This document shows, in pieces, positions 32,900-48,672 of a stretch of 64,000 nucleotides of DNA. The DNA lies in the NCBI GenBank assembly GCA_900544615.1, contig UQVS01000001.1:22998-86997 (forward strand), given 5' to 3'. The notes beneath the pieces were generated by a model, which had not been told where the DNA came from, did no database searches, and worked only from the letters and a program-made list of their open reading frames with translations. Made by a program: the position numbers and the translations under genes. This stretch comes from an uncultured Oscillibacter sp. GTDB taxonomy: Bacteria; Bacillota; Clostridia; Oscillospirales; Oscillospiraceae. The stretch's first letter is position 1. Each line of letters begins with the position of its first letter.

Positions 32900-34855
32900 T
32901 TATTCCACGGTCTGGTATTTCAGCTTGTAATAACTCCAGCAGCGCCACTTGTGTACGGCGTCCTTCAGCGCTGCTGCGGCCTCGTCGGTCTGCTCGTTCA
33001 GGATCCGCTGGGGCAGCACGGTGCCGTCCGCCAGAATGTAGGTTTTTTTCTGCACCACCGGCGCTGTCCGCCGCAGGGAACCCAGAAAGTCGAACCACGG
33101 ATCTTCCCCGGTGCGGCCGGTGAGATCCAGCAGGGTACTGCCAAGGAAGGCGGCGGAGATGACCCCGTCCTCCGGCAGCTCCAGAGAAGCCACAGCGCTG
33201 TCCCAGTCCAGTGTCTCCGCCGCGGCGCTGTTGGCCCAGATCACATAGGGCGTCTTATAGGAGCAGAGAATGTCCGTTCGGTCGTTTTCGGCAGCCGCCA
33301 CCTCGGAACCAAGCTCCGCGTAGCCCTTCTGGTTATCCCCCAGATAGGGCAGATGGTCGCCGTAGAACACCAGCACCACCGGCTCGCCGCGCTCCTCAAA
33401 ATAGGCGGTCAGGCGTCCCAGCATGGCGTCGGCGTCCCGGACGCCCTCCGTATAGACCTCCAGCATGGTGCGGGTCTCGTCGGAGATGTCCGCCGTGGTG
33501 GAAATGGGCGCAAAGGTGTGGCCCTCGCCGTACTTGTCGGCGGTGTAGCTCATGTGGTTCTGGATGGTGGTGGTGTAATTGAAGAGGGGGCGTCCCTCCG
33601 CCACGGCGGTTTCAAATTCCTGCTCGATCTGGCCCGCCATATAGTCGTCCGTGACCCAGCGGCCCTTGTATTCCAGGTTTTCCATATCTCTGGAAAAGGC
33701 CTCATATTCCGCCCCCAGCCAGCGGTAGACATTTTCCCGGTTGTAGAACCAGGCGTCGCCGGGGTGATAGAACGAAGTGCGGTAGCCGTCGGCGCCGAAC
33801 ACCCGGAACAGGCTGTCCAGATTCCGATTCACCACCCGCATGGCGGAGGTGGTGGTGGCGGAGAGGGCATTGGTCTGCATACCCGTCAGTACGTCAAACT
33901 CCGTGTTGGCAGTGCCGCCGGCAAAGCCGGGAACCACGATATGTCCGGAAACGGCGTGAGGATCGTTTTGCAGCGCGTGGAGGTTGGGCAGGGGATCAGT
34001 CTCCTCCGTCCAGTCGAACATGGGCTGATCCGTGATGTCGGAGAACGCCTCGTTCATCACCATGATGATGCTGACGTCCTGCCCCAGTCCCGTCTGCTCC
34101 CCGGTTTCCCACCCGGCGGCTTCTGATTTGGAGAAGCCCTCCGGCCTGTCCACAGGGTAGGTGGTGAACTGGTGGCAGAAGCAGTAGGGAAAGCCCAGCT
34201 CGTTGAATACGGAGGGGACATAGTAGGCGTTGCTGACATGGAAAGAGTTATAGAGATCGTTGCTGGCATACACCGTAAAGATCAGGGCCGTCAGCACGCC
34301 GAAGCTGAGGACTGCACCGATGATCCGTTCCGGCCAGCAGCGGCCGGGGAGCACGGCTGCGGCATCCTTTTTTACCTTTGCTTTCAGCACGGCAAACGAC
34401 ACCGGACGACTGGTAACAAACACCCCCAGCGCCGCCAGCAGCGCCGTGGTCAGGACCACAAGGGCAATGGCCGTCACCGGGTAGCGGATGTCGTAGGTCT
34501 GCATGGCGCTGCCCACTTCCCGCACCAGCGCAAAGTCCCGCGGGAACACCGGCTCGTCCCGCACCTCGATTTTGACCCGGTTGAAAAGGGAGAGGGCGCA
34601 GACGAAAAAGTTCACCAGTGCTGCGCCGTAAAAGACATTTTTGAATAGAAACGCAAAGGTCAGCAGCAAAAGCCCCACCGGCAGGGCGTTCAGCACGATC
34701 AGCAGAGGCTGGGATCTGAAAATGACCAGCACCGTCCGCAGCGCGTTGGGCTGGCACCACAGGGCCAGCAGGGTGATACAGCCTGCCAACAGCACGGCCA
34801 GCAGCAGACTGCCCCACAGGGGAAGGGTAAATTTATGAATCCGCTTTTCTTTCAA
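32900..34855 (-). CDS. LTA synthase family protein (LtaS-like sulfatase-domain phosphoglycerol transferase)
   Basis: Five N-terminal TM helices plus an extracellular alkaline-phosphatase/sulfatase-like domain. TTG start. Confidence 0.8.
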   Translation of the reverse strand: MKEKRIHKFTLPLWGSLLLAVLLAGCITLLALWCQPNALRTVLVIFRSQPLLIVLNALPVGLLLLTFAFLFKNVFYGAALVNFFVCALSLFNRVKIEVRDEPVFPRDFALVREVGSAMQTYDIRYPVTAIALVVLTTALLAALGVFVTSRPVSFAVLKAKVKKDAAAVLPGRCWPERIIGAVLSFGVLTALIFTVYASNDLYNSFHVSNAYYVPSVFNELGFPYCFCHQFTTYPVDRPEGFSKSEAAGWETGEQTGLGQDVSIIMVMNEAFSDITDQPMFDWTEETDPLPNLHALQNDPHAVSGHIVVPGFAGGTANTEFDVLTGMQTNALSATTTSAMRVVNRNLDSLFRVFGADGYRTSFYHPGDAWFYNRENVYRWLGAEYEAFSRDMENLEYKGRWVTDDYMAGQIEQEFETAVAEGRPLFNYTTTIQNHMSYTADKYGEGHTFAPISTTADISDETRTMLEVYTEGVRDADAMLGRLTAYFEERGEPVVLVFYGDHLPYLGDNQKGYAELGSEVAAAENDRTDILCSYKTPYVIWANSAAAETLDWDSAVASLELPEDGVISAAFLGSTLLDLTGRTGEDPWFDFLGSLRRTAPVVQKKTYILADGTVLPQRILNEQTDEAAAALKDAVHKWRCWSYYKLKYQTVE

Positions 34856-34969
34856 AATGACAAATCCTTTCCGAAAAAATCATATCCCTATTATATGAAT
34901 TCGGCGGAAAATTGCAAGTGTGACGCAGGACATCCCCTGCAAACGGCTGTTTCCGCAGGTGGAAAGGGA

Positions 34970-34998
34970 TTGACTTCCCTTCGGGAAGATGCTACACT
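34970..34998 (+). promoter_or_regulatory. promoter TTGACT-17-TACACT for the cysK leader
   Basis: A near-consensus -35 and -10 with an exact 17-nt spacer. Confidence 0.6.
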
Positions 34999-35007
34999 GA
35001 ATATATT

Positions 35008-35158
35008 ATGAAACAGAATGAGTGGAAAACCTGTTGTTGTAAGACACAGGACGGCTGAACTGCCAGAAGCAGACACAGGCGTCCGTTTTCGTGTGCCTGT
35101 GTCTTGCATGAGGAGCTTTCAAAAGCGGTGTGCAAGAAAACGCACACCGCTCTTTTTA
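35008..35158 (+). promoter_or_regulatory. candidate cysteine-responsive attenuator: 16-codon leader ORF MKQNEWKTCCCKTQDG (three consecutive TGT codons), alternative stems, intrinsic terminator
   Basis: ATG at 35008, TGT TGT TGT at 35032-35040, stop at 35056. AAGACACAGG (35041-50) and AGACACAGGC (35072-81) are both complementary to GCCTGTGTCTT (35096-35106). The terminator AGCGGTGTGC-AAGAAAAC-GCACACCGCT plus CTTTTTAT is at 35124-35158, ~60 nt before cysK. Confidence 0.55.
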
Positions 35159-35217
35159 TCTATGCGGCGTCCAAATCTCATCATCCATCTTATCGATCAT
35201 ATTGAGGAGAATGTGCT

Positions 35218-36186
35218 ATGAACTTTACGCATCTGGTTGGAAACACCCCCATGATCCGCATCCGCTACAGGCTGGACGGACAGGAGCAGTCCGTCTGGGC
35301 CAAGCTGGAGGCCTATAACCTCTCCGGCAGCATCAAGGATCGGCTGGCGGCCCATGTGATTGCCAAATCCACCGCCAACGGCACGCTGAAGCCGGGGCAG
35401 CCCATTGTGGAGATGACCAGCGGCAACACCGGCATTGCATTTGCCGCGCTGGGCGCGCTGACAAAGCACCCCGTTCATATCTTCATGCCGGACTGGGCCA
35501 GCGAGGAGCGGAAAAAGCTGATGGCCATGTACGGGGCCGTGCTGCATCTGGTTTCCCGCAAGGAGGGCGGCTTCAATGCCGCCTTGCAGGGCGCGAAAGA
35601 CATGGCGGAGGAGATCGGCGCGTTCCAACCCCGTCAGTTTGAAAATCAGGACAATCCGGAGGCCCACTATCTCACCACCGGCGTGGAGATTCTGCGGCAG
35701 CTGCCCGGCGTCACGGACTTCGTGGCAGGCGTCGGCTCCGGCGGTACCCTGATGGGCACCGCCCGGCGGCTGAAAGAGGCCGGACAGTGCCGGGCCGTTG
35801 CCGTGGAGCCGGATGCAGCCGCGCTGCTTACCGGCGGCACTGTTACCGGGCCGCACCGCATTGAGGGCATCGGAGACGATTTCATCCCCGCCGTAGTAGA
35901 CCCCACCCTGATCGACCATATAGCGGACATCAACGATCTGGACGCCATCGCCATGGCTGCCAAGATCGGCCGGGTGCTGGGTCTGGGTGTGGGGATCTCC
36001 TCCGGCGCAAACTTTCTGGGTGCGGTTCTTCAGAACCGGCAGCCGGGACGGCAGGTGGCCACCGTGTTTGCCGACGACAGCAAGAAGTACCTTACCACCC
36101 TGCTGGCCACGCCGCCGGCAGAAACGTCGGGGATGGTGACCTCCCGCATCGAACTGCTGGGCTATGAGCCGGTGGAGACCCGGTAA
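35218..36186 (+). CDS. cysK: PLP-dependent cysteine synthase (O-acetylserine sulfhydrylase, CysK/CysM family)
   Basis: PLP-lysine in GSIKDRLA and the glycine-rich GVGSGGT loop. RBS GAGGAG. Confidence 0.88.
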   Translation: MNFTHLVGNTPMIRIRYRLDGQEQSVWAKLEAYNLSGSIKDRLAAHVIAKSTANGTLKPGQPIVEMTSGNTGIAFAALGALTKHPVHIFMPDWASEERKKLMAMYGAVLHLVSRKEGGFNAALQGAKDMAEEIGAFQPRQFENQDNPEAHYLTTGVEILRQLPGVTDFVAGVGSGGTLMGTARRLKEAGQCRAVAVEPDAAALLTGGTVTGPHRIEGIGDDFIPAVVDPTLIDHIADINDLDAIAMAAKIGRVLGLGVGISSGANFLGAVLQNRQPGRQVATVFADDSKKYLTTLLATPPAETSGMVTSRIELLGYEPVETR

Positions 36187-36288
36187 GGCTTTTTCCACGC
36201 TGAGGTGTTTCTCCTCTTGCGGGGGCGGAGAAAGCGTGTTAAAATCTCCTTTGATATAACAAAATCAGACAGAGGAGCGCAGCGCATG

Positions 36289-36942
36289 ATTCGTACCGTT
36301 TTATTTGATCTGGACGGCACCTTGACGGACTCACGCGAGGGGATCGTCAACTCCGTAAAATACACTGTGGAAAAGCTGGGCGGCCCCATGCCGGATCCGC
36401 AAACCCTGCTGAAATTCATCGGCCCTCCTTTACAGGAATCCTTTATGGAGTACTGCGGCTACAGCCGGGAAAAGGCTGTGGAGGGCGTGCAGGTGTTCCG
36501 GGAGCAGTATGTGCCGGTGGGGCAGTATGAAAACGCAGCGGTGGCCGGCGGCAGGGAGCTGCTGGAACGGCTGAAAGCCAAAGGATACACGCTGGCGCTG
36601 GCCTCCTCCAAGCCGGAGGAGCTGTGCGTCAGCATCTGCGCCCGGTTCGGTTTCACCCCCTCGCTTGCCGCCGTCACCGGCAGCCCTGCCGGTGCGGACT
36701 GGGGAAAGGCCGACGTGATCCGGGAGGCCATGCGCCGTCTGGGACTGACGGATGCGGATAAGCCTGCGATTCTGATGGTAGGCGACCGGAAATACGATGT
36801 GCTGGGCGCTGCGGAATGCGGCATTGCCTGCGTAGGCGTGGAGTTCTTCGGCTACGCCGCCCCCGGCGAACTGGCGGAGGCCGGCGCGGCAGCGGTGGTT
36901 CAAACGCCGGAGGAACTGGAAGATTACATTCTGAATCACTGA
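36289..36942 (+). CDS. HAD-IA family hydrolase (phosphatase)
   Basis: LFDLDGTLTDS motif I and GD(R)xYD motif IV. Start at MIRTV (RBS GAGGAG). It is co-directional with cysK and follows it closely. Confidence 0.75.
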   Translation: MRTVLFDLDGTLTDSREGIVNSVKYTVEKLGGPMPDPQTLLKFIGPPLQESFMEYCGYSREKAVEGVQVFREQYVPVGQYENAAVAGGRELLERLKAKGYTLALASSKPEELCVSICARFGFTPSLAAVTGSPAGADWGKADVIREAMRRLGLTDADKPAILMVGDRKYDVLGAAECGIACVGVEFFGYAAPGELAEAGAAAVVQTPEELEDYILNH

Positions 36943-37512: not shown

Positions 37513-38124
37513 ATGGCTGACGATATGCGAACCCTGGGCTATATCTGCCCCCAATGCGGTGCACCAGTCATGGGCGCCCGCTCCATTTTTGCTCTGGAAG
37601 CGTCTGATGCGGAAATCGAGTGTTCCTGCGGCGGCAGCGTTCTGCACACAAGATACGACGGGCAGAATTACCGGCTGCTGGTTCCCTGCGGCGTCTGCGG
37701 CAAAACTCATGAGGCCGTCTGTCCGCCGGAGCGGATGCTCCGGGGCGCTACTGCTCTCAGCTGCCCGGACAGCAGGCAGTTCTGCTGCTTTATCGGGGAG
37801 GAAGGCACTGTGGAGCATCATCTCCGGGAGGCCGACATCGCCATCTCCAAGGAAAAGGCGCAGGAGAGTAATGGTGAAGCGGAGGCGTTTACAGACAATG
37901 TGATCATGTACGAATTTCTCTCGGAGCTGAAGGATATCGCCGCCCGGCCGGACGGCATTACGTGCAGTTGCGGCAGCCGCCGCTACAGCATGGAGATCCG
38001 CCGGGATGCGGTGGAGCTGGTGTGCAGGGACTGTGGCGCCCGGCTGCGGCTCAGCGCCGCAACTGACCGGGATCTGGACGATCTCTGCTGCCACATGAAG
38101 CTGGTCATTCCGGGGAAGCAGTAA
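37513..38124 (+). CDS. cysteine-rich hypothetical protein with two tandem multi-CxxC zinc-ribbon modules
   Basis: RBS AGGAGG 8 nt upstream. Paired motifs CPQCG, CSCGG, CGVCG, and CSCGS, CRDCG. 203 aa with no TM segment. Confidence 0.6.
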   Translation: MADDMRTLGYICPQCGAPVMGARSIFALEASDAEIECSCGGSVLHTRYDGQNYRLLVPCGVCGKTHEAVCPPERMLRGATALSCPDSRQFCCFIGEEGTVEHHLREADIAISKEKAQESNGEAEAFTDNVIMYEFLSELKDIAARPDGITCSCGSRRYSMEIRRDAVELVCRDCGARLRLSAATDRDLDDLCCHMKLVIPGKQ

Positions 38125-46934: not shown

Positions 46935-48377
46935 TCAGAACCTGACCTTTTCGGCAAGATAGCTCTTTACCTGATCGATAGGAATCCGCACCTGCTCCAT
47001 GGTGTCGCGCTCCCGGATGGTAACGCAGTGGTCGGCAGGGGTGTTCTCATCACCCACGGTGTTGAAGTCCAGCGTGATGCAGAACGGAGTGCCGATCTCG
47101 TCCTGACGGCGATAGCGCTTGCCGATGGAGCCGGTCTCGTCGTAGTCCACCATGAAGTCCTTGGACAACTCGTTGTACAGCTCCATGGCAGGGCCGGCCA
47201 GAACCTCCTTCTTGCTCAGGGGCAGGATGGCCGCCTTGAAGGGCGCCAGCGCGGGGTGGAAGTGCATGACCACGCGGACATCGTCCTTGCCGTTCTTATC
47301 CTGACCCACGACTTCTTCATCGTAAGCGTCGCACAGGACGGCCAGCACGCTGCGCTCTACGCCCAGAGAAGGCTCGATGACATAGGGGATATACTCCACC
47401 ATATCCTTGCCCTCGCCCTCGCGGTAGACCAGCTTCTGGCCGCTGACGTTGGAGTGCTGGGTCAGGTCGTAGTCGGTACGGTCGGCCACGCCCCACAGCT
47501 CGCCCCAGCCAAAGGGGAACAGGAACTCAAAGTCCGTGGTGGCCTTGGAATAGAAGCACAGCTCCTCAGGATCGTGGTCACGGAGCCGGAGATTCTCATC
47601 CTTCAGGCCGATGGACAGCAGCCAGTTGTGGCAGAAGGTGCGCCAGTAGTTGAACCACTCCAGATCAGTGCCGGGCTTGCAGAAGAATTCCAGCTCCATC
47701 TGCTCGAATTCCCGGACGCGGAAGATGAAGTTGCCCGGCGTGATCTCGTTGCGGAAGGACTTACCGATCTGGCCGATGCCGAAGGGCAGCTTCTTCCGGG
47801 TGGTACGCTGGACGTTGTTGAAGTTCACGAAAATACCCTGAGCCGTTTCAGGACGGAGGTACACCGTGTTCTTGGCATCCTCGGTAACGCCCTGGAAAGT
47901 CTTGAACATCAGGTTGAACTGGCGGATGTCGGTGAAGTTGTGCTTGCCGCAGGTGGGGCAGGGAATGTTGTGCTCTTCGATGAAGTCCTTCATCTCCTGC
48001 TGGGAGAAAGCGTCCACCGCCTTGGGCAGCTCAAACCCCGTCTCAGCGCACCAGTCCTCAATCAGCTTATCGGCCCGGAACCGCTCATGGCACTCCCGGC
48101 AGTCCATCAGAGGATCGGAGAAACCGCTGAGGTGGCCGCTGGCCACCCACGTCTGGGGATTCATGAGGATGGCGGCGTCCAGACCCACGTTGTAGGGGTT
48201 CTCCTGCACGAATTTCTTCCACCATGCGTTCTTGATGTTCTTTTTCAGCTCCGCGCCGAGAGGGCCGTAGTCCCAGGTGTTGGCGAGGCCGCCGTAGATT
48301 TCGCTGCCGGGGAATACAAAGCCCCGGTTTTTGCACAGGGCAACAATTTTGTCCATGGTCTTTTCCGTGTTGTTCAT
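46935..48377 (-). CDS. glyQS: glycine--tRNA ligase (dimeric GlyQS type)
   Basis: [41 protein letters not shown] with class II aaRS motifs. RBS GAAGGAG. Confidence 0.93.
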
Positions 48378-48397: not shown

Positions 48398-48672
48398 TGA
48401 AATAGACTTTTTCTGGCTCAGACGCGTCGTATCAAAGCAAAAAAACGCCCTGAGCCGCTTTCCGGCTCAGGGCGAGTTACGCATAACCCGTGGTTCCACC
48501 TGAATTCCCCGTTGGAGGCGGGGCACTTCGTTCCCGATAACGGCGAGGTCCGGCGCAGCATTTCCGCCGCGCAGCTCCAGAGCGCCATCCCGTTTTTCCC
48601 GGAGGAGCTTTCACCGGCCGCTCCCTCTCTGTGCCTTTTGAAAACGGAACTTCTCTGTCACAGCTTTTACTC
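48398..48672 (-). ncRNA. T-box riboswitch leader of glyQS (probable GGC glycine specifier)
   Basis: On the minus strand: promoter TTGACA-17-TACAGT (plus coordinates ~48705-48677), a stem I with an AGAGA GA-motif, the T-box sequence AATTCAGGTGGAACCACGGG (plus 48487-48506), and the terminator GCCCTGAGCCGG-AAAG-CGGCTCAGGGC plus GTTTTTTT (plus 48473-48440). Confidence 0.85.

What the first reader, a model, noticed from the sequence alone, without database searches (positions are those of the whole stretch)
34970..35217. Leader peptide with three consecutive Cys codons plus terminator upstream of cysteine synthase: candidate ribosome-mediated Cys attenuator
What the sequence shows:
- A near-consensus promoter TTGACT-17-TACACT places the transcription start ~3 nt before an ATG at 35008.
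- That ATG opens a 16-codon ORF, MKQNEWKTCCCKTQDG, with TGT TGT TGT at 35032-35040.
- The ORF's 3' end (AAGACACAGG) and a downstream near-repeat of it (AGACACAGGC) are both complementary to GCCTGTGTCTT, giving mutually exclusive stems.
- A strong intrinsic terminator follows at 35124-35158, and cysK plus a HAD phosphatase lie immediately downstream.

Why it matters: a run of regulatory codons in a short leader ORF before a terminator is the hallmark of trp/his/phe-type attenuation. Cysteine-specific leader-peptide attenuation of cysK in Clostridia is, to my knowledge, not an established mechanism.

Open questions: the leader ORF lacks a Shine-Dalgarno and would have to be translated as a leaderless or near-leaderless message. 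I could not draw a clean 1:2/2:3/3:4 scheme, so the exact switch logic is unresolved.
Basis: partly seen in the sequence, partly recalled or inferred. Interest (0 to 1): 0.68.

Follow-up and report, generated by a model that had tools for sequence, protein, structure and literature searches.

The report
Cysteine-sensing leader peptide attenuator
A 16-codon upstream reading frame with three cysteine codons, conserved with competing RNA hairpins and a terminator ahead of a cysteine-synthase-like gene in many gut Clostridia, most likely lets a stalled ribosome turn the gene on when cysteine is scarce; I found no earlier description of this for cysteine in this bacterial group.

Summary

- **Conservation.** The same layout precedes orthologous genes in 28 further distinct leaders from Oscillospiraceae, Christensenellaceae, Anaerovoracaceae and unclassified Clostridia. 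Other Firmicutes carry differently built leaders that also hold Cys-codon runs.
- **Selection.** The leader is 81-84% identical among relatives whose third codon positions are only 57-70% identical.
- **Known families.** No Rfam family matches.
- **Switch logic.** Five pairings are conserved, with compensatory changes. C (35091-35109) is complementary to the top of the terminator hairpin, so it is the candidate antiterminator. C can be locked by A5' (35038-50) or by B (35069-84). B can itself be held by S (35049-64), which contains the stop codon.
- **Inferred mechanism.** Only a ribosome parked on the Cys codons both covers A5' and leaves the S:B hairpin intact. That frees C and allows read-through.

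This is ribosome-mediated attenuation, a known principle, in a form I found undescribed: cysteine-specific, mostly leaderless, ending in an intrinsic terminator, in Clostridia. The regulated enzyme's closest solved relative is the H2S-releasing Fn1055, so the leader implies a biosynthetic role here. Nothing has been tested experimentally.

The parts
34970..34998 (+). Sigma-70-type promoter: TTGACT, 17 nt, (TG)C TACACT
   Evidence: Found by the promoter scan. The -35 and -10 boxes sit at the same distance from the leader start codon in relatives.
35008..35058 (+). Leader ORF MKQNEWKTCCCKTQDG* (16 codons plus TGA), with no Shine-Dalgarno sequence; predicted leaderless or near-leaderless
   Evidence: Read. 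An in-frame ORF with a Cys run is conserved in 28 other leaders of this architecture. The residues outside the Cys run vary.
35032..35040 (+). Three consecutive Cys codons, TGT TGT TGT (codons 9-11): the sensing site
   Evidence: Nearly invariant across the family (alignments A1 and A5). TGT is the minor Cys codon in this window, 22.8% of Cys codons.
35038..35050 (+). Segment A5' (TGTAAGACACAGG): the first lock on strand C, covered by a ribosome stalled at the Cys codons
   Evidence: Forms 13 bp with 35096-35108. On A5, 95.7% of cells are paired and 3 pairs change on both sides. In L138 two A:U pairs are replaced by G:C.
35049..35064 (+). Segment S (GGACGGCTGAACTGCC), containing the stop codon TGA at 35056-58; pairs with B
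   Evidence: The S:B hairpin is -18.5 kcal/mol. It forms in all 18 leaders tested, and in the 6 of 9 later ones completed, when the ribosome is placed on the first Cys codon. The stop codon lies inside the hairpin in 29/29 leaders. The outer helix is 96.1% paired, with 3 pairs changing on both sides.
35069..35084 (+). Segment B (GCAGACACAGGCGTCC): the second lock on C, and alternatively the partner of S
   Evidence: The B:C hairpin is -23.1 kcal/mol. It is 95.2% paired, with 3 pairs changing on both sides. L135, L144 and L147 carry several compensatory exchanges.
35091..35109 (+). Segment C (GTGTGCCTGTGTCTTGCAT): candidate antiterminator strand and the most conserved RNA segment
   Evidence: TCTTGCAT (35102-09) pairs with GTGCAAGA (35130-37), and GTGTGC (35091-96) pairs with GCACAC (35142-47). 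The duplex is -20 kcal/mol, z = -4.3. C is the best partner of the terminator apex in 29/29 leaders. Compensatory U:A to C:G changes are seen.
35124..35158 (+). Intrinsic terminator: stem AGCGGTGTGC / GCACACCGCT, loop AAGAAAAC, then CTTTTTA
   Evidence: Found by the terminator scan; about -19 kcal/mol. The stem is 96.9% paired with 5 pairs changing on both sides.
35218..36186 (+). Regulated gene: PLP-dependent protein of the cysteine synthase family (CysK/CysM-like, below the equivalog cut-offs)
   Evidence: NCBIfam cysKM scores 281 bits against a cut-off of 344. The closest solved structure is 5B53, which is Fn1055: 278 bits and 48% identity.
36280..36942 (+). HAD-family phosphatase, probably co-transcribed; conserved downstream only in the Dysosmobacter/Oscillibacter group
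   Evidence: Family assignment. tblastn finds it downstream only in L001 and L003-L005 of the genome loci (plus metagenome contig L124). It is also called downstream in L138-L141.

Best explanation
This is a cysteine-responsive, ribosome-mediated transcription attenuator. It controls a cysteine-synthase-family gene.

**Set-up.** Transcription starts at or 2-3 nt before the AUG at 35008. A ribosome therefore loads on the 5' end without a Shine-Dalgarno sequence and translates a 16-codon leader whose codons 9-11 are UGU UGU UGU. Downstream lie five interacting segments.
- C (35091-35109) is complementary to the upper stem and loop of the terminator hairpin (35130-35147). When C is free it can prevent the terminator (35124-35151) from forming.
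- C has two alternative locks. One is A5' (35038-50), directly after and overlapping the last Cys codon. The other is B (35069-84), a near-repeat of A5'.
- B can itself be held in a hairpin with S (35049-64), which contains the stop codon.

**Proposed logic (inferred).**
1. Cys-tRNA scarce. The ribosome parks on the Cys codons and covers A5' but not S. S:B forms as soon as it is transcribed, so both locks are disabled. C pairs with the emerging terminator apex, and RNA polymerase reads through into cysK.
2. Cys-tRNA plentiful. The ribosome runs to the stop codon inside S and melts S:B. B captures C, the terminator forms, and a transcript of about 150 nt is released.
3. No translation. A5':C plus S:B form, and the terminator forms.

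**Shown versus inferred.**
- Shown here: the elements exist, they are conserved, and the pairings covary.
- Inferred: the transcription start, leaderless initiation, ribosome footprints, the kinetic order of folding, and the direction of the response.

**Confidence.** About 0.8 that this is a Cys-codon leader-peptide attenuator. About 0.5 that the wiring is exactly as drawn.
For: **Conservation of the leader ORF**
- A promoter-proximal short ORF with a run of Cys codons precedes homologues of the gene in 22 of about 43 bacterial loci from one-genome-per-species data, and in none of 37 Methanobrevibacter loci.
- It is present in all 9 further metagenomic lineages that had enough upstream sequence.
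- It is also present in the metagenome contigs found by DNA pattern alone, all of them upstream of the same gene.
- The start codon lies 6-9 nt after the -10 box in nearly all members.
- Peptide residues other than Cys are not conserved.
- Relatives with quite different, AT-rich leaders that do have a Shine-Dalgarno sequence still carry MTKCCC(CC) or similar before a terminator.

**Selection**
- Leader identity is 0.81-0.84, against 0.57-0.70 at third codon positions and 0.46-0.66 in the flanks.
- TGT is the minor Cys codon, at 22.8%.

**Structure**
- All five pairings are present in each of the 19 leaders tested, mostly at -12 to -25 kcal/mol (weakest -9.8).
- On the 16-sequence alignment A5, B:C plus terminator is 95.9% paired with 8 pairs changing on both sides; 0 of 500 shuffles reach this, and slid controls give 22-60% paired.
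- S:B plus C:apex is 88.6% paired with 7 such pairs, again 0 of 500.
- A5':C is 95.7% paired with 3 such pairs.
- The strongest partner of the terminator apex anywhere in the leader is segment C in 29/29 leaders. This includes L014 and L135, where both strands have changed.
- With a ribosome placed on the first Cys codon, the nascent RNA folds into S:B at -18 to -25 kcal/mol in every leader tested. Placed on the stop codon, S:B cannot form.
- The stop codon lies inside S:B in 29/29 leaders.

**Specificity**
- No Rfam family matches.
- A covariance model built from the close relatives finds the divergent groups (E = 1e-7 to 6e-3) and gives only one hit in the window.
Against: - There is no experimental or transcriptomic evidence for the transcription start, for translation of the ORF, for premature termination, or for a response to cysteine.
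- At equilibrium, B:C plus terminator remains the minimum-energy fold even with the stalled-ribosome mask. Read-through therefore depends on kinetic trapping of B by S, which I could not simulate convincingly.
- The C:apex helix is implemented in different registers in different lineages. In the window's own register only 78-89% of its cells are paired on A5.
- The sequences are related, and the shuffle controls do not correct for phylogeny.
- Leaderless initiation is not known to me to be common in Clostridia. One close relative, L138, uses a leader with a Shine-Dalgarno sequence instead.
- The closest characterised enzyme, Fn1055, is described as degrading cysteine to H2S and serine. Taken at face value, that fits poorly with induction by cysteine starvation.
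Confidence: 0.72

Rival explanations
1. The principle is the same (a Cys-codon leader-peptide attenuator) but the wiring is simpler or different. For example, A5':C against C:apex could be the whole switch. S:B would then be only an RNA-polymerase pause hairpin that synchronises translation with transcription, as 1:2 does in trp, and B a redundant back-up lock.
For: - A5':C, C:apex and the terminator alone would already make a trp-like 1:2 / 2:3 / 3:4 set.
- In the window's group S:B is followed by a U-rich stretch (GUCCGUUUUCG), which resembles a hairpin-dependent pause.
- I could not resolve the folding kinetics.
Against: - B:C is as conserved and as strongly covarying as any other helix. 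B would sequester C in the stalled state unless S held it.
- The stop codon lies inside S:B in 29/29 leaders, which suggests that ribosome position at the stop matters.
Confidence: 0.2
2. The polarity is reversed. The gene encodes a cysteine-degrading, H2S-producing enzyme like Fn1055. The leader would shut it off when cysteine is scarce, so that ribosome stalling favours termination and cysteine abundance favours read-through.
For: - The closest solved and characterised relative (48% identity) is Fn1055, a cysteine (hydroxyl) lyase that makes H2S and serine.
- The equilibrium fold with a stalled-ribosome mask still contains B:C and the terminator.
Against: - No state other than the stalled one frees C. 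A ribosome at the stop codon covers only about 2 nt of B, and after release both A5' and B can lock C. Under this reading the conserved C:apex complementarity would have no purpose.
- The Fn1055 reaction is a beta-replacement. By general PLP-enzyme chemistry (my own knowledge, not tested here) it should run in reverse, serine + H2S to cysteine, where sulfide is abundant.
Confidence: 0.06
3. The conserved RNA is a riboswitch or a protein-binding leader that senses a sulfur metabolite directly, and the short ORF is incidental.
For: - Strong primary-sequence conservation of GCCUGUGUC and ACACAGGCG, together with a terminator.
- Other cysteine and methionine genes in Firmicutes are commonly controlled by T-box or S-box RNAs or by CymR (PMC2566862).
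Against: - No Rfam match at any threshold.
- The conserved sequences are fully accounted for as mutually complementary strands. C is invariant because it has three partners.
- The ORF keeps its start at the predicted 5' end, its frame and its Cys run across lineages. The Cys run is the only feature shared with the structurally unrelated AT-rich leaders.
Confidence: 0.05
4. The product matters rather than the act of translating it. Either the CCC peptide is a functional micropeptide (for example metal- or redox-active), or the terminated RNA of about 150 nt acts in trans as a small RNA.
For: - Small Cys-rich peptides exist.
- Terminated riboswitch and leader transcripts can act in trans in other bacteria (from my own knowledge).
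Against: - Apart from the Cys run, the peptide sequence and length vary freely: MKQNEWKT-, MFNFAFET-, MMNFEVCF-, and 13-24 codons.
- The conserved nucleotides downstream of the Cys codons are explained by RNA pairing.
- The element is always directly upstream of the same gene family.
Confidence: 0.04

Closest known systems
Classical leader-peptide transcription attenuators of amino-acid operons (trp, his, leu, thr, pheA, ilv in Enterobacteria; trp and ilvB in Actinobacteria)
   Same: A short leader ORF with a run of codons for the cognate amino acid, an intrinsic terminator before the biosynthetic gene, mutually exclusive hairpins, and ribosome position selecting between them. Without translation the default is termination.
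   Different: - The amino acid sensed is cysteine.
- The ORF starts at or next to the 5' end without a Shine-Dalgarno sequence.
- The antiterminator strand pairs with the apex and 3' side of the terminator hairpin rather than only with its 5' arm.
- An extra relay hairpin (S:B, containing the stop codon) reports that the ribosome has reached the stop, in place of the ribosome physically covering segment 2.
- There is no sequence similarity and no Rfam match.
- The host is Clostridia, where Naville and Gautheret noted that leader peptides are rare.
Mycobacterial polycysteine leaderless sORFs (Ms5788A and relatives; Canestrari et al., bioRxiv 10.1101/834739)
   Same: A leaderless short ORF with consecutive Cys codons as the first cistron, upstream of cysteine-metabolism genes. 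Ribosome stalling at the Cys codons relieves repression.
   Different: - The mycobacterial system acts on translation. [quoted passage not shown]
- Here a strong intrinsic terminator lies 66 nt upstream of the cysK start codon, and the downstream GAGGAG is not part of the switch.
- The phylum differs and there is no sequence relationship.
uORFC-8-2 motif upstream of cysS in Rhodobacterales (Brewer et al. 2021, PMC8632094)
   Same: A predicted ribosome-mediated attenuator with tandem Cys codons in a uORF, followed by a terminator.
   Different: - It has two Cys codons, at positions 14-15, mostly UGC, lying inside the first of two stems.
- It regulates cysteinyl-tRNA synthetase in alpha-proteobacteria.
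- It is not described as leaderless.
- It has a different structure, and it too has not been tested experimentally.
Predicted Cys leader peptides of Actinobacteria (Seliverstov et al. 2005, PMC1262725)
   Same: Short ORFs with runs of Cys codons upstream of cys or cbs operons.
   Different: No terminator or conserved hairpins were found there, and the authors proposed Rho dependence. Here the terminator and the alternative hairpins are conserved.
Cysteine-specific T-box leaders of Firmicutes (for example the C. acetobutylicum ubiG operon, PMC2566862)
   Same: They read the same physiological signal, uncharged against charged tRNA-Cys, and control the same outcome, read-through of a terminator before cysteine genes in Clostridia.
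   Different: A T-box binds the tRNA directly and is not translated. This leader has no T-box features. The one T-box in the window belongs to glycine-tRNA ligase.

Membership tests
Leader-peptide (ribosome-mediated) transcription attenuators | Short translatable ORF in the 5' leader | tested here: met
   A 16-codon ORF at 35008-35058. The in-frame ORF is conserved in 29 leaders. That it is actually translated is inferred.
Leader-peptide (ribosome-mediated) transcription attenuators | Run of codons for the amino acid made by the regulated genes | tested here: met
   TGT x3 at 35032-40. Two to five consecutive Cys codons are present in every member. The rare codon is used.
Leader-peptide (ribosome-mediated) transcription attenuators | Intrinsic terminator between the leader ORF and the structural gene | tested here: met
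   Stem at 35124-35151 plus a T tract. The stem covaries: 5 pairs change on both sides.
Leader-peptide (ribosome-mediated) transcription attenuators | Antiterminator structure mutually exclusive with the terminator | tested here: met
   C:apex duplex of -13 to -24 kcal/mol in all members, z = -1.8 to -4.9. C is the best apex partner in 29/29 leaders. Compensatory changes are seen. The register differs between lineages.
Leader-peptide (ribosome-mediated) transcription attenuators | Geometry by which a ribosome stalled at the regulatory codons selects the antiterminator and a ribosome at the stop codon selects the terminator | tested here: inconclusive
   Masked folding is consistent with this. 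It rests on assumed ribosome footprints and on kinetic trapping. The equilibrium fold keeps the terminator and my stepwise simulation was uninformative.
Leader-peptide (ribosome-mediated) transcription attenuators | Read-through rises when the cognate aminoacyl-tRNA is limiting | not testable with these tools
   This needs RNA-seq, Term-seq or reporter assays with and without cysteine.
Mycobacterial polycysteine leaderless sORF attenuators | Leaderless start (transcription start at the AUG or GUG) | tested here: inconclusive
   The spacing from the -10 box to the start codon is 6-7 nt in many members and 9 nt in the window. No transcription-start data are available. L138 has a Shine-Dalgarno sequence instead.
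Mycobacterial polycysteine leaderless sORF attenuators | The polyCys tract pairs with the Shine-Dalgarno region of the downstream gene; control is translational and no intrinsic terminator is involved | tested here: not met
   An intrinsic terminator lies between the ORF and cysK. The Cys-proximal segment pairs with C at 35096-35108, not with GAGGAG at 35204-09. The paper states that its mechanism is not transcription termination.
T-box leaders (RF00230) | Match to the T-box covariance model (specifier loop, T-box sequence) | tested here: not met
   No hit in 34850-35260 even at E <= 10. The window's only T-box is at 48465-48670 on the minus strand.
Any other curated RNA family (Rfam 15: SAM and other riboswitches, known leaders) | Score at or above the gathering threshold | tested here: not met
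   The best sub-threshold hits are unrelated families with E-values of 0.1 or higher.
uORFC-8-2 (Rhodobacterales cysS uORF motif) | Located upstream of cysS in Rhodobacterales, with two Cys codons at uORF positions 14-15 inside the first stem | tested here: not met
   The gene, the taxon, the codon position (9-11) and the architecture all differ. No model of that motif was available for a direct scan.

The most novel reading that the evidence does not exclude
This may be a previously undescribed and widespread family of cysteine-specific leader-peptide transcription attenuators in gut Firmicutes. Its features would be initiation mostly at the 5' end without a Shine-Dalgarno sequence, and a two-lock relay design in which a stop-codon hairpin reports that the ribosome has arrived. 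Its presence would also re-label the Fn1055/CysK2-type enzymes of these anaerobes. They are currently counted as H2S-producing cysteine degraders, and would instead be enzymes induced by cysteine starvation, acting as cysteine synthases (serine or an activated serine plus sulfide).
Probability: 0.5. Interest if true: 0.68.

Novelty: new variant of a known kind. Interest (0 to 1): 0.6.

Why it matters
- **A gap in the list of attenuators.** Leader-peptide attenuation is a textbook mechanism, but I found almost no cysteine versions. The only tested one (mycobacteria) acts on translation, and the authors stated in 2020 that they knew of no uORF-mediated cysteine attenuation. A cysteine-specific version ending in an intrinsic terminator, in Clostridia, would fill that gap. 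Leader peptides have been considered rare in Firmicutes.
- **Leaderless translation in regulation.** It would be an example of leaderless translation used for regulation outside Actinobacteria.
- **Abundant organisms.** The element occurs in common human-gut and animal-gut lineages: Dysosmobacter/Oscillibacter, other Oscillospiraceae, Christensenellaceae, and RF39-like Bacilli in a variant form. Its 99%-identical protein cluster holds 953 member sequences.
- **A reading of enzyme function.** The regulated enzyme's closest characterised relative, Fn1055, is listed among the gut's cysteine-degrading H2S producers. A switch induced by starvation argues that in these organisms the enzyme makes cysteine.
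- **Annotation and engineering.** The motif gives a compact, sequence-defined cysteine sensor. It would also improve annotation of these short ORFs, which were not called as genes on any of the contigs examined.

Tried and rejected
- **Stepwise co-transcriptional folding.** A greedy simulation that froze earlier pairs locked in spurious local hairpins and gave inconsistent outcomes. I discarded it. ViennaRNA equilibrium folds with ribosome masks always keep the terminator, so thermodynamics alone cannot show the switch.
- **A small hairpin before the terminator.** GCTT/AAGC (35117-20 with 35123-26) was considered as an antiterminator. Only 3 of 4 pairs form and it is not conserved.
- **Direct pairing of A5' or B with the terminator's 5' arm.** Only 4 bp are possible (reading). 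Rejected.
- **The DNA-pattern scan of metagenomes.** It returned 51 loci, but most were chance matches, including a repeat family with TGT microsatellites (L082, L097, L108, L121). Only 13 were true leaders, and most of those were identical to the window.
- **The covariance-model alignment of divergent groups.** It placed S and B of groups ii and iv in insert columns and mis-assigned two terminators. I therefore used MAFFT alignments of the better-behaved extended group (A5), plus per-sequence energy calculations.
- **Automatic detection of the C strand.** It failed in 8 of 29 leaders. The overlap with C was confirmed there by reading the printed windows.
- **The T-box in the window.** It belongs to glycine-tRNA ligase, not to a cysteine gene.
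- **The HAD phosphatase as a conserved operon partner, possibly supplying serine.** It is conserved downstream only in the closest relatives.
- **Homologue loci without a Cys run (20 loci).** They have no Rfam element upstream either. Some share an AGCAC...AGGAGGTGCT hairpin over the Shine-Dalgarno sequence, which I did not pursue.
Full report
**1. What is in the window**

- **Promoter.** TTGACT (34970-75), 17 nt, then TACACT (34993-98), preceded by TG. The scan also reports it.
- **Leader ORF.** ATG at 35008, with no purine-rich Shine-Dalgarno sequence before it. It encodes MKQNEWKTCCCKTQDG. The TGT TGT TGT run is at 35032-40 and the TGA at 35056-58.
- **Repeated segments.** AAGACACAGG and AGACACAGGC are both complementary to GCCTGTGTCTT.
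- **Terminator.** A 10-bp stem at 35124-35151 followed by CTTTTTAT.
- **Downstream gene.** GAGGAG lies 8 nt before the ATG at 35218, which opens a 322-aa PLP enzyme of the cysteine-synthase family. NCBIfam cysKM scores 281 bits, below the cut-off of 344.
- **Second gene.** A HAD hydrolase follows.

The leader RNA folds better than all 200 shuffles (z = -3.4). The organism is a Dysosmobacter/Oscillibacter species: the best genome hit is 93% identical at protein level.

**2. It is not a known RNA family**

Rfam 15 gives no hit in the leader at gathering thresholds, and nothing meaningful at E <= 10. The window's only T-box (48465-48670, minus strand) precedes glycine-tRNA ligase.

**3. The mini-ORF is conserved**

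- **Genome loci.** I fetched 80 loci encoding relatives of the enzyme, one genome per species. A short ORF holding three or more consecutive Cys codons lies within 450 nt upstream in 22 of about 43 bacterial loci and in none of 37 Methanobrevibacter loci. L017 has two adjacent Cys codons plus a third nearby.
- **GC-rich members.** In Oscillospiraceae, Christensenellaceae, Anaerovoracaceae and unclassified Clostridia the layout matches the window: a -35/-10 promoter, a start codon 6-9 nt after the -10 box (11 nt in L012), about 8 variable codons, the Cys run, a few more codons, hairpins and a terminator.
- **Metagenome pattern scan.** A scan that ignored the downstream gene recovered only this gene's leaders as true hits. 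Eight human-gut contigs were identical to the window, and four variants also appeared.
- **Intermediate lineages.** Nine more lineages at 63-81% protein identity, reached through a protein search and contig look-ups, all have such a leader. They include members with two Cys codons (L135, L136, L138) and a GTG start 7 nt after the -10 box (L143). One close relative has a Shine-Dalgarno sequence and a longer 5' UTR instead of a leaderless start (L138).
- **AT-rich relatives.** RF39-like Bacilli (labelled Mycoplasma sp. CAG:776) and other AT-rich relatives have unrelated leader sequences that do carry a Shine-Dalgarno sequence. They still encode MTKCCC(CC)... followed by a hairpin and a U run.

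The Cys run in a short translated frame is therefore the one feature shared by otherwise different leaders. Outside the Cys run the peptide sequence is free to vary.

**4. Selection**

Between the window and its five closest species the leader is 81-84% identical. Third codon positions of the adjacent gene are 57-70% identical, and the flanking non-coding DNA is 46-66% identical.

TGT is the minor Cys codon in this 59% G+C window (64 TGT against 217 TGC). Yet TGT dominates the run in all GC-rich members. By general decoding rules (my own knowledge), tRNA-Cys(GCA) reads UGU through a G:U wobble, which should make the pause more sensitive to charging.

**5. The pairings** (leader position + 35007 = window coordinate)

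- A5' = 35038-50 (TGTAAGACACAGG)
- S = 35049-64 (holds the stop codon)
- B = 35069-84
- C = 35091-35109
- D and E = the terminator arms, 35124-33 and 35142-51

Five pairings are possible in the window:

| Pairing | Size or energy |
|---|---|
| A5':C | 13 bp |
| S:B hairpin | -18.5 kcal/mol |
| B:C hairpin | -23.1 kcal/mol |
| D:E terminator | about -19 kcal/mol |
| C with the terminator apex | -20 kcal/mol, z = -4.3 |

The last pairing is the new one. TCTTGCAT (35102-09) pairs with GTGCAAGA (35130-37, the top of the 5' arm plus the loop). GTGTGC (35091-96) pairs with GCACAC (35142-47).

All five pairings are present, mostly at -12 to -25 kcal/mol (weakest -9.8), in each of 19 leaders from five sub-groups.

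**6. Covariation**

Pair counts on the 16-sequence alignment A5:

| Conformation | Cells paired | Pairs changed on both sides | Shuffles reaching this |
|---|---|---|---|
| B:C + terminator | 95.9% | 8 | 0 of 500 |
| S:B (outer) + C:apex | 88.6% | 7 | 0 of 500 |
| A5':C | 95.7% | 3 | 5-10 of 500 on the cell-based measures |

The same structures slid by 1-3 columns pair only 20-64% of cells.

Instructive cases:
- **L138.** C changes from GCCUGUGUC to GCCCGCGUC, and A5' follows from GACACAGG to GACGCGGG, giving two A:U to G:C exchanges.
- **L135, L144 and L147.** These carry multiple compensatory exchanges in B:C.
- **L001 and L103.** U to C at position 97 of C is matched by A to G in the apex, and in L001 also in A5'. 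L005 holds the U:G intermediate.
- **L014 against L017.** Both C and the apex are changed, with a U:A to C:G exchange, and 10 bp are kept.

Every single-sided change in A5' and B among close relatives is a transition that keeps a wobble pair with C. This fits C being nearly invariant because it must serve three partners.

As an unbiased test, I slid a 16-nt window along each whole leader and asked which stretch pairs best with the terminator apex. The answer is segment C in 29 of 29 leaders, where the chance of an overlap is about 0.29 per leader. This holds in L135, whose terminator sequence is entirely different.

A caveat applies to all of this. The sequences are related, the shuffle controls ignore phylogeny, and the register of C:apex differs between lineages.

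**7. Ribosome geometry**

- With the first Cys codon in the A site and 14 nt downstream masked, the RNA made before C emerges folds into the S:B hairpin at -18 to -25 kcal/mol. This holds in all 18 leaders tested, and at -18 to -32 kcal/mol in the 6 newer ones for which completed (the script stopped before L144, L143 and L147).
- With the ribosome on the stop codon, S is covered and S:B cannot form.
- The stop codon lies inside S:B in 29/29 leaders.

The inferred logic follows from this. C, the antiterminator strand, is free only when A5' is covered by a ribosome stalled on the Cys codons and B is held by S. That state leads to read-through. A ribosome that reaches the stop melts S:B and releases B onto C. 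An untranslated leader forms A5':C plus S:B. Both of those states allow the terminator to form.

In effect this is the trp scheme with one added relay. The terminating ribosome cannot reach the antiterminator strand, so it sends B instead.

The weak point is kinetics. At equilibrium B:C plus terminator wins even with the stalled-ribosome mask, as is also true of several classical attenuators (my own knowledge). My stepwise simulation was not informative.

**8. Comparison with what is known**

The literature searches found four related descriptions.
- **Mycobacteria.** Leaderless polycysteine sORFs that attenuate translation by sequestering the Shine-Dalgarno sequence, explicitly not by termination. 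The authors knew of no earlier uORF-mediated cysteine attenuation (10.1101/834739).
- **Actinobacteria.** Predicted Cys leader peptides without terminators (PMC1262725).
- **Rhodobacterales.** A predicted uORF with two Cys codons plus a terminator, upstream of cysS (PMC8632094).
- **Firmicutes in general.** Leader peptides are rare there (PMC2965389).

I found nothing describing a cysteine leader-peptide attenuator in Clostridia. The library lacks many subscription papers, so prior description cannot be excluded.

My classification is that the element works like a classical attenuator but is not a member of any described family. It is a new variant of a known kind.

**9. The regulated enzyme**

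The closest solved structure is 5B53 (278 bits, 48% identity over 293 residues). That structure is Fusobacterium nucleatum Fn1055/CysK2, described as a cysteine (hydroxyl) lyase that converts cysteine and water to H2S and serine. A survey of gut genomes counts fn1055 homologues as cysteine-degrading H2S producers.

A leader that turns the gene on when Cys-tRNA is scarce argues that in these bacteria the enzyme works in the biosynthetic direction. This is an inference from the regulatory architecture, and I give the opposite polarity a probability of about 0.06.

**10. Verdict**

- The mechanism is proposed with moderate confidence: about 0.8 for the principle and about 0.5 for the exact wiring.
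- Everything still awaits experiment.

Noticed in passing
window 48465-48670 (-) and 46935-48377 (-): A T-box leader (107 bits, above the gathering score) lies directly upstream of a glycine-tRNA ligase gene (NF003211, 680 bits). This organism therefore uses a T-box for glyS and a leader peptide for the cysK-like gene.
   Followed up: partly
L009, L029, L030, L035, L053, L067, L075 (about 200-220 nt upstream of the cysK homologue): AT-rich RF39-like or 'Mycoplasma sp. CAG:776' relatives have a leader ORF with a Shine-Dalgarno sequence, MTKCCC(CC).... Its start region (AUAUGACUAAA) is complementary to the region at its stop codon (UUUAGUCAUAU). A long AU-rich hairpin plus a U run follows, and its 3' arm holds AGGAGG. 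A second conserved small ORF (MF..QVN.IRC...) then runs up to the cysK start. This looks like a differently wired Cys attenuator, possibly acting on translation.
   Followed up: partly
L138-L140 (leader about 264 nt upstream of the gene): A relative whose enzyme is 81% identical has the same hairpin architecture. Its leader ORF (MNYDAFKTCCKTRDS, two Cys codons) starts 28 nt after the -10 box, behind a GAGGG Shine-Dalgarno-like sequence. Leaderless and Shine-Dalgarno-led versions therefore interconvert within the family.
   Followed up: partly
L147/L148 leader: In this divergent member the Cys codons themselves (AUUGUUGUUGU) are complementary to ACAACAAU just 3' of the C core. The A5':C lock has moved onto the sensing codons.
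   Followed up: no
L010, L011, L016, L018, L020, L024, L027, L028, L037, L040, L072 (upstream of the cysK homologue): These Bacilli-type homologue loci lack a Cys run. They share the conserved motif ATTAGACAAAATA...AGCACTTTTT...ATAATTATAGGAGGTGCTTTTATG, in which AGCAC can pair with GTGCT over the Shine-Dalgarno sequence. No Rfam family matches.
   Followed up: no
window 37513-38124 (+): A 203-aa protein with 16 Cys codons arranged in CxxC-like pairs has no NCBIfam match. It lies two genes downstream of the cysK-like gene.
   Followed up: no
L082, L097, L108, L121 (metagenome Ga0224511): Chance hits of the DNA pattern turned out to be copies of a dispersed repeat, TAGTGCCTGTGTGGCGGCTGTAAAA(A)GTCGCC...GGTCCTCAGGGATCATGGAGTG. 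It sits next to TGT microsatellites, looks eukaryotic, and is unrelated to the finding.
   Followed up: no
P0026-P0028: Three 481-aa database proteins combine Toprim/topoisomerase Pfam domains with the PALP domain at 73-74% identity to the query. These may be gene-calling fusions across the leader region, or real fusions.
   Followed up: no
window 34856-35007: The 152-nt intergenic region also holds a divergent promoter-like site (TTGCAA-16-TATAAT, 34917-34890, minus strand) for the LtaS-like membrane protein at 32900-34855. The two promoters are back to back, about 50 nt apart.
   Followed up: no
L132/L133, L142, L136/L137 (downstream of the cysK homologue): In several lineages the gene next to the regulated enzyme encodes a flavin reductase-rubredoxin fusion, rubrerythrin or Fur-family proteins. 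This hints at a link between this enzyme and redox or iron-sulfur metabolism.
   Followed up: no
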